DNA of 64,000 bases, from IMG/VR virus record IMGVR_UViG_3300028886_000051; one strand, given 5' to 3'. Source of the stretch: a virus (taxonomy: Duplodnaviria > Caudoviricetes). The translations under genes were made by a program, and so were the position numbers. The notes under the pieces were generated by a model. It saw only the letters and a list, made by a program, of their open reading frames with translations. It did not search any database and was not told where the DNA came from. How positions within the stretch are numbered: position 1 is the first letter of the stretch; every line of letters begins with the position of its first letter. Positions 1,670 to 31,145 of this stretch are shown in pieces.

Positions 1670-1754
1670 TTGCGTCAAATATACGATAAAATCGTATATT
1701 AAAATCAACGCTACCAGTCTGCCTAAATTTAAAACAATTCCAGGAGGTATAATT

Positions 1755-2126
1755 ATGGAAAAGAAAAATTTAAACAATTGCACTATGAATGAGGCTATTG
1801 CTATTTTAAAAGAAGCCTCAATGAAAAGCAAAAGAAGCAATTTTACAATCAAGTGCGATAATTGTACGCTTGATATTGTATGCGGTGGTGAATTTAATAT
1901 GTGCGATGAAGTAATTGAAGTTGCATTATTTACAGTAAACGGAGAAACTTGGCTCCCTCTTGATATGGAAAATGCAGATGGAAGCATTATGACAGAAGAT
2001 AGACCGATTATCCACAATCTTCCGTTAATTTGTTTTCCTGCTTTTGTAAGGCAGTTTAAAAAATTATCCGATGAAGATATGAGTGTAGTATGGGATGCAT
2101 GGGATACCATCTCACTTTATTCTTAA
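1755..2126 (+). CDS. Hypothetical protein
   Basis: AGGAGG SD before ATG 1755, in frame with track ORF 1614..2126. Confidence 0.7.
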   Translation: MEKKNLNNCTMNEAIAILKEASMKSKRSNFTIKCDNCTLDIVCGGEFNMCDEVIEVALFTVNGETWLPLDMENADGSIMTEDRPIIHNLPLICFPAFVRQFKKLSDEDMSVVWDAWDTISLYS

Positions 2127-2153
2127 TTTGTAGGCAGACTGAAATCTGCCTAT

Positions 2154-2224
2154 GGGATACAAGGCAAACACCTCTACGTGGTGTGTCCTAGAAACGGAAA
2201 TGCAATTTTCCGGCTAAGTTTGCC
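2154..2224 (+). ncRNA. HDV-like self-cleaving ribozyme
   Basis: P1 GGGAUAC/GUGUCCU with G1-U wobble; P2 GGCAAAC/GUUUGCC; P3 ACC/GGU with L3 UCUACGU; P1.1 CU/AG; P4 CGGAAA/UUUCCG; J4/2 GCUAA with catalytic C at 2214. Confidence 0.85.
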
Positions 2225-2248
2225 AATATGAAAATCGGAGGTGTAATT

Positions 2249-2410
2249 ATGAGTGTAGAAAGCAAAGTATACCGTTTAACAAACGGAAATCTTATGGCAA
2301 GAGAACTGTATGATATTGATAGGGAAATATATAATTTTCTATGCGTACATACAGTGGAAGTAGCACGGCGATTCTTTGGATGGAAACGTATAAAAGAATT
2401 GCAAAAATAA
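2249..2410 (+). CDS. Small hypothetical protein
   Basis: GGAGG SD before ATG 2249. Confidence 0.55.
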   Translation: MSVESKVYRLTNGNLMARELYDIDREIYNFLCVHTVEVARRFFGWKRIKELQK

Positions 2411-2600
2411 AAACTTATTGCTATAATAAAATTGTATTTACCTTTCTAAAGGGAAATATATAATTGTGTCAATGAGTGGTAAGGGAAACCGAGCCACTCT
2501 AACACTTGCGTAATAGAAACCTTTATGTGGTGCAAGTGATAAGTATTTTGCATATTTGCAAAAGAAACTAATTCTATAAAACGCAAATTGGAGGTATATA

Positions 2601-3014
2601 ATGGAAAAGCAAAATGAATTATATGAAACCGTTGAAAAAATCGCAAAGGCAAGTGTTCTATTGTATGCCGTAATGGAAAGCGATGGTGATTTGATTGAAG
2701 AACCATGTGTCATAAATAAGCGAAAATACGATGGATTTCATAAAGCAATTGAAATTTTGTCAGATTTAAAGGCAAAAGGACAGTGCGATTTTGAGGCAAT
2801 GGATATCAGAAAAGAATACACTATGCATTCTATAGAGGTTAAATGGAATTTAACAGATGATTTTTATATTTATATAGATGAATCAAATAAAAGCGAAATT
2901 AAAACTCTTTTAGATTGTATGGATACTTGTATTATATCTGATGACGATGCTACAAGATGGAGTTTTATAAGCAAAATATTTGTTCCAAAAAGCGAAATTG
3001 AAAGTGGTGATTAA
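2601..3014 (+). CDS. Hypothetical protein
   Basis: ORF with GGAGG SD. Confidence 0.7.
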   Translation: MEKQNELYETVEKIAKASVLLYAVMESDGDLIEEPCVINKRKYDGFHKAIEILSDLKAKGQCDFEAMDIRKEYTMHSIEVKWNLTDDFYIYIDESNKSEIKTLLDCMDTCIISDDDATRWSFISKIFVPKSEIESGD

Positions 3015-3296
3015 ATGATAGTATATGATAAACTGATGAATATTTTATCAGAAAGGAAAATGAATAAGCGTCAACTTTCAGAAGCAATAGGAATAAAGGC
3101 AAACACAATGTCTGCATTATCTAAGAATAGAAATGTAAACATGGAAACTATAAACCGTATCTGTGAGTATCTTAAAATCCAACCTTCAGAAATTATGGAA
3201 TGGATACCAGATGAAGAATATAACAAGGCAAATGAAGAAAAACAAGCCATAGAAGCTCAAATAGCCGAACTTCAAGCGAAACTAAAAAAAATGTAA
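3015..3296 (+). CDS. Cro/C1-type (Xre) helix-turn-helix regulator
   Basis: YDKLMNILSERKMNKRQLSEAIGI...VNMETINRICEYLKIQPSEIMEW matches the Cro/C1 HTH pattern. Confidence 0.85.
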   Translation: MIVYDKLMNILSERKMNKRQLSEAIGIKANTMSALSKNRNVNMETINRICEYLKIQPSEIMEWIPDEEYNKANEEKQAIEAQIAELQAKLKKM

Positions 3297-3300
3297 TCAC

Positions 3301-3332
3301 AAAAAGCACTCTCAAATTGAGGGTGTTTTTTT
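3301..3332. terminator. Rho-independent terminator, possibly bidirectional
   Basis: AAAAAGCACTCTC-AAATT-GAGGGTGTTTTTTT directly after the stop codon. Confidence 0.7.
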
Positions 3333-28012: not shown

Positions 28013-28907
28013 GCGAGGTGAAATGAATGGATATTATAGAAGAAATTTTGGACAAGTATTTTGATGAAGAACATGAATATTATCATCGTTACAGAGAAGA
28101 TGAAGAAAATTATTATGATGTCGTTGACGAGTTAAAGCAAGAATTAACTAAGAAAAACATTTCTTTTAAATTGGATGTTACGGACGCATTTGATTTTCCT
28201 GGTTATGAGTGTTCTGTTTTATCGATTGCTTATATTAAACCAAATAATAATTGGGATTCTATCGAACTGGAAACAGTTTTATTAGAAAAGTATGTAAAGA
28301 ATAATCATATATAGAAATTTCTATCTTGGCGATTCAGCCAAATTTTTCCAAAAAAGAGGTGAGAAAAAATTAAGACCTATAAAAAGATTTTATTTTCAAA
28401 ACATGCAGAGTCTCCGTTGGCGTGGAGAGATGATAGAAAAGCAAAAACTCACATTGAATTAGTATTATATTTTGATTTCAAAGAAGGTGTGAGATTTACT
28501 GCAACGGCAGGAAATATATCAGCATGTCGTAGAAACCCATTTAAAGCACTTTTTAGAGTGTTGGAACATGAATCAATTGGCATGGCGAAGTATGACTATC
28601 TAAAAGATGATACAAGAAGAAAAGGGTTATGGCAGAAGCTATAACAGAGAATAATATAGTATAGAAAATTTTCTTAACTTGGACATTCGTTCAAGTATTT
28701 CCAAAAACAAAAATAAAGTAATGAAATATTTTTTTCTTTATTCTCTGTCAAAATCCTTTAATCTACAGAGATTGCGCAATCATTTTTACCCAGGAGTTAC
28801 TGTTAAATCCTTTCTTCTTAATTATTTTGTTGAAAAATCCTATAGAATTAACACGTCTGCTAAAACCATAAGAAAAAAATAATTATTGTGAGAAGAAATG
28901 GAAGTTA

Positions 28908-30269
28908 GTGAACTTCTGTGAGTTTGATAAATATGCAACAAGTTCTTATTGTGCTATTCATAATGAGAACGAAAGTAAAAATCTTGGTGATATTACTAAG
29001 GTTAATGAAACAAAACTTGAACCATTTAACATGATTTGCGGAGGATCGCCATGTCAGGATTTTTCAGTCGCTGGTAAACAGAAAGGTTCTGTATGGACTT
29101 GTAAAGATTGTGGACATGAGTATAACCCACTGACAGTTCATTGGTCAGAAAGAGATAAGTGTCCATGCTGCGGAAGTAATAACATTGAGAAGACTCGTTC
29201 ATCTCTTTTGGTAGAGTATCTGAGAGTTATCAGAGCAAATAAACCGAATTTTGGTATGTACGAGAATGTAAAGAATATTGTAGGAAAGCAGTTTAAAGAT
29301 ACATTTAAGATGTTCACAGATGAGTTGGATGAGTATGGATACAATGTGTACTGGAAAGTCCTAAATGCAAAAGATTATGGTATTCCTCAGAATAGAGAGC
29401 GTGTGTATCTGATTTTTATTAAGAAAGAATTAGACAATGGAAAGTTTACATATCCTGAACCATTTGATAATGGAATGAGATTAAAAGATATTCTTGAAGA
29501 GAATGTTGATGAGAAGTTTTATATCTCAGAAGATAAGGTTCAGAGATTTTTAACAAATCTCAATAACGAAGACGCTTTATTATACGATGCTTGTCAGGTT
29601 AAAAGAGAAGGAAAATCAAGAGAATATAATGATTTCTGTCCTACTTTAACAGCAAGAGATTATAAAGATCCACGTCTTGTAAATGATAATGTTGTAAAAC
29701 AGATTGGCACAATTTCTAAATGTGAGGGGAATTGGAAAAATCCACAGGTAGGTAGAATTTATAGTACAGATGGTTGTAGTCCAACATTAAATACTTGTGG
29801 AGGTGGTAGTCATGAACCAAAGATTGTTCAGCTAGGAAATGTAAATCCATCTGGCAAAGGTATGAATGGCAATGTGTTTGACGAGAATGGATTAGCACCG
29901 ACTCTTACAACAAATAAGGGTGAGGGTAATAAGATTGCAATTCGCCAGGTTCACAAAATTGAACCACCTATTAGGATCAGAAAGCTTACTCCAAAGGAAT
30001 GTTTTAGACTTATGGGATTCTCAGATGAAAATTTTGAAGCAGCTGAGAAGATGGTAAGTAACAGTCAGTTGTACAAGCAGGCAGGAAATTCTATCGTAGT
30101 AGATGTTTTATATTACATATTGGTTGAATTGTATAAGACTATGCCATATCTTTTTGAGGATTTGAGATTGAGTAGCTTCTTTTCAGGAATCGGCGCATTT
30201 GAGATAGCATTGAATAGATTATATGAAGGAATCAACTCTGGAAATTTTATAAATCCACAAGTGGATTAA
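28908..30269 (+). CDS. Circularly permuted DNA cytosine-C5 methyltransferase
   Basis: GGSPCQDFS (IV), ENV (VI), QNRERVY (VIII), RKLTPKECFRLMGF (IX), YKQAGNSI (X), then FSGIGAFE (I) at the C-terminus. Start codon uncertain. Confidence 0.9.
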   Translation: MNFCEFDKYATSSYCAIHNENESKNLGDITKVNETKLEPFNMICGGSPCQDFSVAGKQKGSVWTCKDCGHEYNPLTVHWSERDKCPCCGSNNIEKTRSSLLVEYLRVIRANKPNFGMYENVKNIVGKQFKDTFKMFTDELDEYGYNVYWKVLNAKDYGIPQNRERVYLIFIKKELDNGKFTYPEPFDNGMRLKDILEENVDEKFYISEDKVQRFLTNLNNEDALLYDACQVKREGKSREYNDFCPTLTARDYKDPRLVNDNVVKQIGTISKCEGNWKNPQVGRIYSTDGCSPTLNTCGGGSHEPKIVQLGNVNPSGKGMNGNVFDENGLAPTLTTNKGEGNKIAIRQVHKIEPPIRIRKLTPKECFRLMGFSDENFEAAEKMVSNSQLYKQAGNSIVVDVLYYILVELYKTMPYLFEDLRLSSFFSGIGAFEIALNRLYEGINSGNFINPQVD

Positions 30270-30445
30270 GTTCTGCTTGTGGTGATAAACCACAATTAGT
30301 TGGTGGTGTCGGTGAAATAAATTTTGGAAAGCAATTTCGTCAGGGTAATAGAGTATATGATTCAGATCATGTAGCAATGTGTTTATTGGCGCAGCCTGTA
30401 GGTAATGCTGGTGGATTCAGTTATTTATATGTGGTTAGAAAATAA
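30242..30445 (+). other. Putative programmed -1 frameshift signal and -1-frame extension of the C5 methyltransferase
   Basis: A-AAT-TTT heptamer 30242-30248; 11-bp stem 30255-30282; upstream AAGGA; the -1 frame is open to TAA 30445 and encodes a TRD-like repeat. Confidence 0.65.
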
Positions 30446-30490
30446 AATGGAGAATAATACAATAGGTAGTTGAAAATAAAATGATATATA

Positions 30491-30532
30491 CAATATATAG
30501 TATTAAGCGATTATAACAAATACTATATATTG
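30491..30532. promoter_or_regulatory. Tandem NrdR boxes upstream of the NAD salvage operon
   Basis: CAATATATAG (30491) and CTATATATTG (30523), 32-bp period. Confidence 0.7.
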
Positions 30533-30620
30533 TATAAAAATCAAAACCAAAAGAAAGCGGAATTTCTTGCGAGTTTTCAGAGAATAAATACATATAAAAA
30601 TAAAGAAAAGAGGTAGAAAA

Positions 30621-31145
30621 ATGAGAGAAACATTAATTGTTGTAGACATGCAGAATGATTTTATTGATGGAACACTTGGTACAAAGGAAGCACAGGCGAT
30701 TGTATCAAATGTAGCAAAGAAAATTAAGGAGTATAAGGATGCTGGTAAACAGGTAATTTTTACAAGAGACACACATCCTGAGAATTATTTAGAGACATAT
30801 GAAGGTGTACATCTTCCTGTTACTCACTGTGTAAAGAATACTATTGGTTGGCAGATTTCAGATAAGCTAGATTTTGATATTGAGAACGATATTCTGATTG
30901 ATAAGCCTACATTCGGTTGGTTAAACTGGAAGGATTTTGGATTTGAAAGTGTTGAGGTTTGCGGATTATGCACCGACATCTGTGTGGTTTCAAATGTACT
31001 TATTATTAGAGCAAATTATCCTGAGATTGATATTACAGTAGATGCAAGCTGTTGCGCAGGTGTGACACCCGATACTCACAAGGCTGCATTAGCAACTATG
31101 AAGATGTGTCAGATTGAAGTGATTGGAGATAATAATGAATTGTAA
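30621..31145 (+). CDS. pncA: Nicotinamidase (isochorismatase family)
   Basis: VVDMQNDF, TRDTH, HC, DKPTFG and GLCTDICV motifs; operon context. Confidence 0.88.
   Translation: MRETLIVVDMQNDFIDGTLGTKEAQAIVSNVAKKIKEYKDAGKQVIFTRDTHPENYLETYEGVHLPVTHCVKNTIGWQISDKLDFDIENDILIDKPTFGWLNWKDFGFESVEVCGLCTDICVVSNVLIIRANYPEIDITVDASCCAGVTPDTHKAALATMKMCQIEVIGDNNEL

What the first reader, a model, noticed from the sequence alone, without database searches (positions are those of the whole stretch)
30226..30445. Classic -1 frameshift signal that would append an extra target-recognition-like domain to the C5 methyltransferase
Seen: zero-frame X-XXY-YYZ heptamer A-AAT-TTT (30242-30248), a 6-nt spacer, an 11-bp stem CCACAAGTGGA/TCTGCTTGTGG (30255-30282), and an SD-like AAGGA about 11 nt upstream, the dnaX/IS911-type arrangement. 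The -1 frame has no start of its own near its beginning and encodes about 65 aa (KPQLVGG...FRQGNRVYDSDHVAMCLLAQPVGNAGG) resembling the internal variable-region repeats (QVGRIYSTDGCSPTL; NGNVFDENGLAPTL). Inference: two isoforms with different specificity sets, a recoding-controlled multispecific phage methyltransferase.
Basis: partly seen in the sequence, partly recalled or inferred. Interest (0 to 1): 0.7.

Follow-up and report, generated by a model that had tools for sequence, protein, structure and literature searches.

The report
Frameshift adds recognition module to methyltransferase
A gut-phage DNA cytosine methyltransferase gene ends in a textbook ribosome "slip" signal, conserved with compensating changes in about fifty related phage and prophage loci, that most likely lets some ribosomes append an extra, swappable DNA-recognition module, so that one gene makes a short and a long enzyme.

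Summary

The reading is supported by comparison.
- 50 of 135 related loci share the heptamer, the spacing, a hairpin and a -1 ORF. They are about 150-kb IMG/VR phages and prophages or bins of Lachnospiraceae, Oscillospiraceae and other Clostridia.
- At least five different stem sequences keep the pairing. 9 of 11 pairs show compensatory changes and 97% of cells pair.
- At least seven different cassette types follow the same junction. All resemble target-recognition domains (TRDs). pN/pS in the -1 frame is 0.04-0.24.
- Natural in-frame fusions exist. One of them reads across the heptamer exactly as the predicted trans-frame peptide.
- The window's module type sits in the normal TRD position in 44 other methyltransferases.

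The upstream SD-like AAGGA is not conserved. No frameshift product has been shown experimentally. That the long form gains an extra specificity is inferred. AlphaFold did not place the appended module.

This scan had already noted the same "socket" in several other genomes. I found no published description.

The parts
28908..30269 (+). Zero-frame gene for a circularly permuted, multi-TRD C5 DNA methyltransferase (453 aa, short isoform). Motif IV is at 29040-29066, a Zn-ribbon insert at 29100-29171, motif VI at 29262-29276, motif VIII at 29388-29405, three internal TRD-like modules at 29592-29942, motif IX at 29973-30020 and motif X at 30066-30110.
   Evidence: Pfam PF00145, E 4e-62; motif coordinates; hundreds of near-identical homologues with the same ends.
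30162..30221 (+). Motif I (LRLSSFFSGIGAFEIALNRL: the SAM-binding FxGxG strand plus helix) placed after motif X. The gene order is II..X-I.
   Evidence: Sequence. Conserved in at least 23 of the top 150 50%-identity cluster representatives. The AlphaFold models of two relatives give this strand and helix pLDDT 95-98.
30226..30230 (+). SD-like AAGGA, 11 nt upstream of the heptamer. It is probably incidental, because it encodes Glu-Gly.
   Evidence: Present in the window's clade but replaced by GAGAGC, GAAAGC, GAAAGT or AAACGA in other frameshift-type lineages.
30242..30248 (+). Slippery heptamer A_AAT_TTT, in phase with the zero frame (GGA AAT TTT).
   Evidence: Invariant in 29 of 31 distinct junction sequences, while neighbouring synonymous sites vary. 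It belongs to class H_HH.U_UU.Y, listed among the most efficient motifs in E. coli (PMC4066793).
30249..30254 (+). 6-nt spacer (ATAAAT).
   Evidence: The hairpin starts 5-6 nt after the heptamer in nearly all frameshift-type loci (4 nt in L100). Known stimulators start 5-8 nt downstream (PMC4066793).
30255..30282 (+). Stimulatory hairpin: 11-bp stem (30255-30265 with 30272-30282) and 6-nt loop 30266-30271, which contains the zero-frame stop TAA at 30267-30269.
   Evidence: -17.1 kcal/mol, z -4.3. 97.3% of cells paired, 9 of 11 pairs with compensatory changes, 0 of 500 shuffles as good. At least five unrelated stem sequences occupy the same position.
30242..30445 (+). -1 frame ORF (67 codons plus stop) with no usable start codon. 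It consists of the junction peptide KFYKSTSGLSSACGD followed by a type A TRD module (core 30293-30430). A shift at the heptamer would give a 512-aa long isoform.
   Evidence: Translation. pN/pS 0.04-0.24 in this frame against about 1 or more in the other two. More than 150 homologues of the module lie inside annotated C5 MTases, 44 of the top 120 in the internal TRD position.

Best explanation
This is a programmed -1 ribosomal frameshift site at the 3' end of a phage C5 DNA methyltransferase gene.

Most ribosomes read GGA AAT TTT ... GAT TAA. They release a 453-aa enzyme that is complete in itself: a circularly permuted core (motifs II-X, then motif I) with three internal target-recognition modules.

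A fraction of ribosomes, paused by the 11-bp hairpin 6 nt downstream, slip back one base. At that moment tRNA-Asn and tRNA-Phe sit on A_AAT_TTT. These ribosomes continue in the -1 frame through ...NF-YKSTSGLSSACGD... into a 46-residue type A TRD module. The product is a 512-aa isoform.

Shown here by comparison: the signal, its conservation and covariation, selection on the -1 frame, and the TRD nature of the module.

Inferred: that slippage really occurs and at what rate; that the long isoform methylates an additional sequence and so widens protection against host restriction; and that the conserved junction doubles as a homology 'socket' through which related phages exchange cassettes.
For: 1. 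All parts of a classical signal are present and in phase. The hairpin is the outlier among 106 AAATTTY sites in the window.

2. 50 of 135 loci that carry the C-terminal motif I have the same layout. They have the heptamer AAATTTT in phase and the zero-frame stop 25 nt after the heptamer's start (28 or 31 nt in two loci). They also have a hairpin starting 4-6 nt downstream and a -1 ORF of 53-123 codons with one or two TRD modules.

3. The stems differ in sequence but keep the pairing. Examples are CCACAAG/CTTGTGG, CCGCCAA/TTGGCGG (L077), CCGTCAG/CTGACGG (L083), CTGCCGA/TCGGCAG (L085) and CCCTCGCA/TGCGAGGG (L100). 9 of 11 pairs show both-side changes. 97.3% of cells pair, against 36-51% in the slid controls, and 0 of 500 shuffles match.

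4. At least seven unrelated cassette types follow the same junction, always in the -1 frame. pN/pS is 0.04-0.24 in that frame for types A, C, D and F.

5. 7 of 36 distinct cassettes contain no ATG, GTG or TTG at all, and 19 of 36 have none in their first third. The -1 frame is closed 0-5 codons before the heptamer. This confines the shift to a 25-nt window that begins at the heptamer.

6. Natural in-frame fusions give the same protein architecture.
- L029/P0121 arose by a 5-nt deletion in the loop.
- L074, L084 and L107 are further examples.
- P0281 reads ...ENF-YSATSGLNSVCGE..., which is the predicted trans-frame junction.

7. The cassettes are real TRDs.
- Type D aligns to M.HhaI residues 237-270.
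- Type C aligns to the internal TRDs of P0127 and P0122.
- Types A and H occur both internally and C-terminally in different family members.

8. P0148 and P0182 have no internal TRD and only an in-frame C-terminal one. The C-terminal position is therefore probably functional.

9. The heptamer class is efficient in E. coli (PMC4066793).
Against: - There is no experimental evidence of a trans-frame product. Frameshift efficiency is unknown.
- One cassette-bearing relative, L033, has A_AAC_TTT, which does not allow A-site re-pairing.
- L074 keeps a heptamer (A_AAT_TTC) and a hairpin although its extension is in frame. The hairpin may therefore have, or also have, another role.
- The upstream SD-like element is not conserved.
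- AlphaFold2 left the C-terminal modules of P0148 and L084 unplaced, with pLDDT below 50. A TRD after motif I is topologically far from the classical site between motifs VIII and IX.
- Some relatives have an ATG in the -1 frame just upstream of the heptamer (P0279). L048 also carries a type B module as a stand-alone gene with GGAGG-N7-ATG. TRD modules can therefore be expressed in other ways.
- The covariation alignment was fitted to the model structure, which favours pairing.
Confidence: 0.78

Rival explanations
1. The downstream ORF is a decaying relic. An ancestral in-frame C-terminal TRD (as in L084, L107 or P0289) was cut off by an indel, and the downstream frame is no longer translated.
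For: In-frame versions exist in more distant relatives. Some cassettes are clearly broken: L042 has a premature stop, and L075 has a 1-nt deletion in the T run with stops downstream. Eight close relatives have lost the cassette altogether.
Against: pN/pS is 0.04-0.24 in the -1 frame across four cassette types. The frame is open in about 50 loci with at least seven cassette types. The heptamer is invariant while flanking synonymous sites vary. The stem shows compensatory changes. A dead relic would show none of these.
Confidence: 0.05
2. The conserved junction and inverted repeat are primarily a DNA-level recombination socket for swapping TRD cassettes. The cassette is expressed, if at all, by another route, and the heptamer is conserved only as coding sequence (Asn-Phe).
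For: The same junction precedes many unrelated cassettes, and a conserved dyad-containing intergenic block follows them, so cassette exchange by homologous recombination clearly happens. L074 keeps the hairpin although it is in frame.
Against: Homology arms need no base-pairing, yet unrelated stem sequences keep the pairing at the same distance from the heptamer. The zero-frame stop always falls in or beside the loop, and the cassette is always in the -1 frame. AAT and TTT are never replaced by their synonyms AAC and TTC in 29 of 31 distinct junctions. The two roles do not exclude each other.
Confidence: 0.07
3. The TRD module is made as a separate small polypeptide, by non-canonical initiation or by termination-reinitiation after the TAA, and works in trans with the methyltransferase core.
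For: L048 has a stand-alone type B module with a good SD and ATG. Gene callers find -1-frame ATGs upstream of the heptamer in some relatives (P0279). Split C5 MTases are known (M.AquI and M.EcoHK31I, from my own knowledge; natural bisection is cited in PMC5944983).
Against: In the window the -1 frame has no ATG, GTG or TTG between the upstream TGA and codon 45, which lies beyond the RVYD core of the module. Seven cassette types have no start codon at all. This route would not explain the conserved heptamer and spacing.
Confidence: 0.05
4. The frame change happens at the nucleic-acid level. Either RNA polymerase slips, or DNA slipped-strand mispairing at the A3T4 run causes phase variation. Alternatively, ribosomes hop from GAT-TAA to the GAT that follows the stem.
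For: L075 carries a 1-nt deletion in the T run. In the window a GAT codon (30284-30286) follows the stem in the -1 frame, 20 nt after the last zero-frame GAT.
Against: Runs of three and four bases are far shorter than those known to support transcriptional slippage or high-frequency phase variation (established knowledge, PMC5009743). No T5 variant was seen among about 50 loci. The take-off and landing codon match is absent in L001, L018, L023 and L041, so hopping is not conserved.
Confidence: 0.03

Closest known systems
E. coli dnaX tau/gamma and IS3/IS911 OrfAB -1 programmed frameshifts
   Same: An X_XXY_YYZ heptamer, a spacer of a few nucleotides, a downstream stem-loop, and two products from one gene in a set ratio (PMC4066793, PMC5009743).
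   Different: The heptamer is A_AAU_UUU, not A_AAA_AAG. The upstream SD-like stimulator is not conserved here. The shifted frame adds a functional domain, as in IS3, rather than truncating the protein, as in dnaX. The gene family (a DNA methyltransferase) is new for this mechanism.
Phage lambda G/GT tail-assembly-chaperone frameshift
   Same: A phage gene in which a conserved -1 slip near the 3' end gives a C-terminally extended minor isoform beside the major short one (established knowledge, reviewed in PMC5009743).
   Different: The protein and its function are unrelated. Here the extension is a swappable cassette with at least seven alternative contents.
Multispecific C5 methyltransferases of Bacillus phages (SPR, phi3T, rho11s, H2)
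   Same: One catalytic core serves several tandem TRD modules, presumably one target sequence per module, as an anti-restriction device (own knowledge of the Trautner laboratory's work). The window enzyme has three internal modules, and relatives have two to five.
   Different: Those enzymes have the canonical motif order I-X, carry all TRDs between motifs VIII and IX, and involve no recoding. Here the core is permuted and one module is attached after motif I through a frameshift.
Natural circularly permuted C5 MTases (M.BssHII, M.Alw26I, M2.Eco31I, M.Esp3I, M2.BsaI)
   Same: Motif X precedes motif I in the sequence.
   Different: Those are all permuted within the variable region (IX-X-I..VIII) (PMC5944983). 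This family is cut between motifs I and II (II..X-I).
M.EcoHK31I (the beta polypeptide is encoded in an alternative frame within the alpha gene) and M.AquI (a split enzyme)
   Same: C5 methyltransferases whose parts come from overlapping reading frames or from separate polypeptides (own knowledge; not tested here).
   Different: Those use independent initiation of a second polypeptide that carries motif IX. Here a start-less TRD frame is reached by slippage and stays fused to the core.

Membership tests
-1 programmed ribosomal frameshift signal (heptamer plus downstream structure) | An X_XXY_YYZ heptamer in phase with the upstream frame | tested here: met
   A_AAT_TTT at 30242-30248 with zero-frame codons GGA AAT TTT. 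Invariant in 29 of 31 distinct junctions.
-1 programmed ribosomal frameshift signal (heptamer plus downstream structure) | A stable RNA structure that starts 5-8 nt after the heptamer | tested here: met
   An 11-bp hairpin after a 6-nt spacer, -17.1 kcal/mol, z -4.3. The spacing is the same in all but one of about 50 loci (L100: 4 nt).
-1 programmed ribosomal frameshift signal (heptamer plus downstream structure) | The structure is conserved through compensatory changes | tested here: met
   9 of 11 pairs have both-side changes, 97.3% of cells pair, and 0 of 500 shuffles match. At least five unrelated stems were found. Caveat: the alignment was fitted to the model.
-1 programmed ribosomal frameshift signal (heptamer plus downstream structure) | The -1 ORF has no start of its own, is under purifying selection and overlaps the zero frame only briefly | tested here: met
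   pN/pS 0.04-0.24. No start codon before codon 45 in the window, and none at all in 7 of 36 cassettes. The -1 frame closes 0-5 codons before the heptamer.
-1 programmed ribosomal frameshift signal (heptamer plus downstream structure) | An upstream SD-like stimulator (dnaX subtype only) | tested here: not met
   AAGGA is present in the window but not conserved in L042, L079, L081, L083, L085, L086 or L091.
-1 programmed ribosomal frameshift signal (heptamer plus downstream structure) | A demonstrated trans-frame protein | not testable with these tools
   This needs a reporter assay or mass spectrometry for LYEGINSGNFYK.
C5 DNA methyltransferase (Pfam PF00145) | Catalytic and SAM-binding motifs IV (PCQ), VI (ENV), VIII (QxRxR), IX, X and I (FxGxG) | tested here: met
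   PF00145, E 4e-62. All motifs were located. The model of relative P0148 matches M.HhaI at E 8e-19.
C5 DNA methyltransferase (Pfam PF00145) | Canonical motif order I to X | tested here: not met
   The order is II..X-I. The N-terminus starts at motif II, and FSGIGAFE follows motif X.
Multispecific phage C5 methyltransferases (SPR type) | Several tandem TRD modules on one catalytic core | tested here: met
   Three internal PTL-type modules at 29592-29942. Relatives differ by whole modules: a 45-aa module is present in P0069 and absent here, and L029 has five.
Multispecific phage C5 methyltransferases (SPR type) | Each module confers its own target sequence | not testable with these tools
   This needs methylome analysis of module-deletion or frame-locked variants.
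Natural permuted C5 MTases of M.BssHII type | The permutation point lies in the variable region (IX-X-I..VIII) | tested here: not met
   The permutation point lies between motifs I and II. REBASE permutants are all cut in the variable region (PMC5944983).

The most novel reading that the evidence does not exclude
Gut phages and prophages of Clostridia carry a plug-in system. It consists of a permuted C5 methyltransferase core whose C-terminus is a standard 'socket': a junction sequence, a slippery heptamer and a hairpin. TRD cassettes are exchanged into this socket by recombination and read by -1 frameshifting, which sets the ratio of core-only enzyme to extended enzyme. Modules attached after motif I, in some relatives the only TRD present, and in others encoded as free-standing mini-genes, would then work wherever they are connected in the chain. 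That would mean TRD docking on the catalytic domain is essentially a protein-protein interaction.
Probability: 0.45. Interest if true: 0.85.

Novelty: new variant of a known kind. Interest (0 to 1): 0.75.

Why it matters
If confirmed, this would be a case of translational recoding used to extend the specificity repertoire of a DNA-modifying enzyme, which I could not find described. It would be a further well-conserved class of bacterial or phage -1 frameshift, beside dnaX, IS elements and tail chaperones.

It offers a compact natural system with a short form, a long form and naturally frame-locked variants. With it one could ask how C5 methyltransferase TRDs dock on the catalytic domain when attached at a non-canonical point.

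It also suggests how abundant gut phages of Lachnospiraceae and Oscillospiraceae trade anti-restriction specificities as cassettes.

In practice, annotation pipelines currently miss the extension or call it a separate orphan ORF. Methylation motifs predicted for these phages would therefore be incomplete.

Tried and rejected
- **Translational bypass (GAT-TAA ... GAT).** The landing codon is not conserved, so this was rejected.
- **Terminator.** No terminator-like site lies in 28400-30700, and promoter-like sites are at chance level. The hairpin is not followed by a T run.
- **Pfam on the 67-aa -1 product and on the 41-aa motif I tail.** No hits. The pieces are too short.
- **PDB sequence search with the window's cassette.** Only a chance colicin hit, E 1.3. 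The type D cassette gave the informative M.HhaI match.
- **INPHARED phages (blastn, distant mode).** Only short 73-79% matches to Streptococcus and Lactococcus phage MTases, and no close relative.
- **Whole genome.** None is held for this window.
- **The look-up of encoding contigs was closed.** The DNA behind P0148, P0165, P0182, P0281 and P0279 could not be read. P0182 found nothing in IMG/VR.
- **AlphaFold2 of P0148 and L084.** The cores are confident, but the C-terminal modules have pLDDT below 50, so docking could not be judged.
- **Cassette-only rows in the MSA.** MAFFT smeared them across the alignment, so they were dropped.
- **Literature.** Six full-text searches found no description of frameshifting in a DNA methyltransferase or of II..X-I permuted C5 MTases. 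The GeneTack study (PMC3711429), the Atkins review (PMC5009743; only the first 300,000 characters are held) and Benler et al. (PMC8008677) were checked and contain nothing relevant.
Full report
**1. The observation**

- The 453-codon ORF 28908-30269 ends ...TCT GGA AAT TTT ATA AAT CCA CAA GTG GAT TAA.
- The heptamer A_AAT_TTT (30242-30248) is in phase.
- Six nucleotides later comes an 11-bp hairpin. Its arms are 30255-30265 and 30272-30282. Its loop, 30266-30271, contains the stop codon.
- The -1 frame is closed by TGA five codons before the heptamer. It then runs open for 67 codons to TAA at 30443-30445.
- The first ATG, GTG or TTG in that frame is at codon 45.
- The hairpin folds at -17.1 kcal/mol, with z = -4.3 against dinucleotide shuffles.
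- It is the clear outlier among the 106 AAATTTY sites of this AT-rich window (32% G+C): -15.9 against -8.7 for the runner-up and a median of -2.0.

**2. The gene**

Pfam calls the ORF a C5 DNA methyltransferase (PF00145, E 4e-62), but its order is unusual.

- It begins at motif II (..VNFCEFDKYA).
- It then runs through PCQ, a Zn-ribbon insert, ENV and QNRER, three PTL-type TRD modules, and motifs IX and X.
- Only after these does it carry motif I (LRLSSFFSGIGAFEIALNRL) at the C-terminus.

This is not damage.

- Hundreds of contigs encode the same ends.
- At least 23 of the 150 best 50%-identity cluster representatives share the II..X-I order.
- AlphaFold2 models of two relatives give the C-terminal strand and helix pLDDT 95-98, inside a fold that matches M.HhaI at E 8e-19.
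- A survey of REBASE found only permutants cut in the variable region (PMC5944983).

The permutation is the subject of a separate first-reader note (e1-5823223). It matters here because the frameshift appends its module after motif I.

**3. Close relatives (IMG/VR, about 150-kb phage contigs, L001-L054)**

The -1 frame behind the stop is open in almost all of them. It begins with the same junction, KFYK..S.LSSACG. After the junction it carries different contents in different phages. There are at least seven cassette types:
- A, as in the window;
- B, C, D and E;
- a short form of C;
- G.

Each cassette type has the ..R[VI]Y...G..P[TS]L..-like signature of TRD modules.

Within types A, C, D and F, pN/pS in the -1 frame is 0.04-0.24, against roughly 1 or more in the other two frames. 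Type B has too few differences to judge.

Informative variants:
- Eight relatives have lost the cassette and the hairpin together, and end ...GNFTK* (L011-16, L046) or ...GNLHKNK* (L047).
- L042 has a premature stop in its cassette.
- L030 has three extra bases in the loop, which preserves the -1 relation.
- L029 has a 5-nt deletion in the loop. This removes the stop and fuses the cassette in frame, giving a 626-aa protein.
- That fused form (P0121: 12 member sequences, 4 contigs) is the only one of its kind found for this cassette in the 5.8-billion-protein collection.
- L033 is the one cassette-bearing locus with an imperfect heptamer, A_AAC_TTT.

**4. Distant relatives**

A scan of one genome per prokaryotic species, using the motif X-to-motif I segment, returned 80 loci. 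They lie in Blautia, Dorea, Lacrimispora, Coprococcus, other Lachnospiraceae, Oscillospiraceae and unnamed Clostridia. In isolates and long contigs they are presumably prophages; some may be mis-binned phage contigs.

Over all 135 loci with the anchor:
- 50 have the full frameshift layout;
- 12 (without an in-phase heptamer) carry an in-frame C-terminal TRD extension; L029, L074 and L107 do so as well;
- 59 end shortly after motif I without a heptamer.

In the frameshift-type loci the heptamer is AAATTTT. The zero-frame stop lies 25 nt after its first base (28 nt in L030, 31 in L100). The hairpin starts 4-6 nt after the heptamer.

The stems, however, are unrelated in sequence:
- CCACAAG/CTTGTGG;
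- CCGCCAA/TTGGCGG (L077);
- CCGTCAG/CTGACGG (L083);
- CTGCCGA/TCGGCAG (L085);
- CCCTCGCA/TGCGAGGG (L100).

I built a covariance model from the close relatives, and it recovered 31 distinct junctions. On that alignment:
- 97.3% of cells form standard pairs, against 36-51% when the partner columns are slid;
- 9 of 11 pairs show changes on both sides;
- none of 500 shuffles reaches the observed values.

The alignment is fitted to the structure, which helps pairing. The different stems are, however, plain in the raw sequences.

The heptamer columns are invariant apart from L033 and L075, which has a 1-nt deletion and a decaying cassette. The third positions of neighbouring codons vary freely. The SD-like AAGGA is not conserved outside the window's clade.

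**5. The cassettes are real TRDs, and the C-terminal position is used**

- Type D aligns to M.HhaI residues 237-270, the block that includes Gln237 and the second recognition loop.
- The core of type C matches internal TRDs of canonical MTases. Examples are a Paenibacillus enzyme at residues 248-287 and P0122 at 313-349.
- The window's type A module has more than 150 homologues at 63-94% identity.
  - Most lie inside annotated C5 MTases, for example those of Clostridium botulinum and C. magnum.
  - In 44 of the top 120 the module lies between motifs IV and X, which is the normal TRD region.
  - The odd-looking AMCLL in place of PTL is therefore a feature of a live module family, not decay.
- Types A and H occur internally in some permuted relatives and C-terminally in others.
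- P0148 and P0182 have only a short linker between motifs VIII and IX. Their sole TRD-like module is fused in frame after motif I.
- L074, L084 and L107 carry in-frame C-terminal arrays.
- P0281 reads ...ENF-YSATSGLNSVCGE-KPVLVGG... in one frame. That is the peptide predicted for a slip on the heptamer: Asn-Phe from the zero frame, then Tyr onward from the -1 frame.

**6. Mechanism**

The best reading is tandem -1 slippage of tRNA-Asn and tRNA-Phe on A_AAU_UUU, promoted by the hairpin.

- In E. coli, H_HH.U_UU.Y heptamers are among the most efficient. Stimulatory structures start 5-8 nt downstream (PMC4066793).
- The possible shift window is narrow. The -1 frame opens 0-5 codons before the heptamer, and the zero frame closes six codons after it.
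- The products would be a 453-aa enzyme and a 512-aa enzyme.

That the long form adds a target sequence is inferred from the behaviour of multispecific phage MTases (own knowledge) and from points in section 5. It was not shown. AlphaFold2 gave no confident placement of the appended modules.

The conserved junction and the conserved intergenic block downstream evidently also serve as homology arms for cassette exchange.

**7. Rivals**

- **Relic pseudogene.** Contradicted by the selection, the covariation and the invariant heptamer.
- **Pure recombination site.** Does not explain the base-pairing, the fixed spacing, the stop in the loop or the constant -1 frame. It may coexist with frameshifting. 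L074 keeps a heptamer and a hairpin although it is in frame, where a slip would give a truncated form.
- **Separate initiation.** Impossible with standard start codons in the window, and for several cassette types. Other relatives do use it: L048 has a stand-alone type B gene with GGAGG-N7-ATG, and P0279 has a -1-frame ATG.
- **Transcriptional or DNA slippage.** The runs of three and four bases are too short.
- **Hopping.** The matching landing codon is not conserved.

**8. Novelty and earlier notes**

Six full-text searches and three targeted readings found no description of recoding in a DNA methyltransferase. The library is limited to open-access papers and preprints.

This scan has itself flagged the same socket in other genomes, and other follow-up agents reached the same reading. 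These are not independent evidence.

I rate it a new variant of a known kind. The signal is a classical -1 frameshift signal, but it sits in a new gene family, has a new use, and combines with a new permutation class and cassette exchange.

**9. Limits**

- No whole genome is held for the window.
- All functional statements rest on sequence comparison.

Noticed in passing
window 28908-30269; P0132-P0258: The II..X-I permuted C5 methyltransferase is a large family. At least 23 of the top 150 50%-identity representatives end ...MPYLFxDLxLxSxFSGIGAFExAL. A 2018 REBASE survey found only permutants cut in the variable region (PMC5944983).
   Followed up: partly
window about 29943-29972, compared with P0069 and P0039: The commonest relatives (498 or 515 aa; P0069 is on 177 contigs) carry one more 45-aa TRD module (ATKKGYIECELGG...ICPTITATETG) between the third module and motif IX. 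The window lacks it. Internal modules therefore also come and go as units.
   Followed up: partly
L035 about 4345 onward; L078; P0146: An ORF resembling an HNH-type homing endonuclease (...CEICGS..RVKHN...) is inserted right after the motif I helix, in place of the socket. In P0146 it is fused in frame, and the GNFTKPQVE tail follows it.
   Followed up: no
L048 4700-4920: A type B TRD module is a stand-alone mini-gene with GGAGG-N7-ATG directly behind the frameshift cassette. In other phages the same module type is the frameshift cassette itself. This hints that TRD modules can act in trans.
   Followed up: partly
P0281 (578 aa, Logan contig): A methyltransferase with motif I at the N-terminus (canonical order) and no FSGIGAFE after motif X. 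It has the junction in frame (..ENFYSATSGLNSVCGE..) plus a type A module, and it ends in a second socket-like tail (..EQNFIQPPID). Sockets may be chained and are not restricted to the permuted core.
   Followed up: no
L075 3145-3211: A 1-nt deletion in the T run of the heptamer (AAATTTA) puts the cassette in the +1 frame, and the cassette has acquired stops. This is either a natural knock-out of the signal or a homopolymer sequencing error.
   Followed up: no
L113-L138 (Oscillospiraceae and other Clostridia genomes): A subgroup has a well-conserved in-frame C-terminal TRD (..GYINDYNGDANRVYDG..AEAGGGGAKTGWY..). In this subgroup the upstream part of the gene is broken into several ORFs in different frames, for example L119 at 1748-3330. 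These could be pseudogenes, split enzymes or further recoding.
   Followed up: partly
window 30470-30535: A 15-bp perfect dyad (ACAATATATAGTATT ... AATACTATATATTGT) lies in the intergenic block downstream of the cassette. It is conserved in relatives and forms the 3' boundary of cassette exchange and of cassette deletion (L011-L016).
   Followed up: no
window 28869-28910: The window's gene can start only at GTG 28908, preceded by a weak GGAAG. Many relatives start 17 codons earlier at an ATG (MTENKEKNNYCEKNWKL..). The window has TAA at 28869-28871 instead.
   Followed up: no
P0279, P0280, P0282, P0295, P0304: In some relatives the -1 frame has an ATG 2-8 codons before the heptamer, for example MYRWEDGKFSS... 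Gene callers then report TRD-only proteins of 129-224 aa with up to four modules. Whether these ATGs are used is unknown.
   Followed up: no
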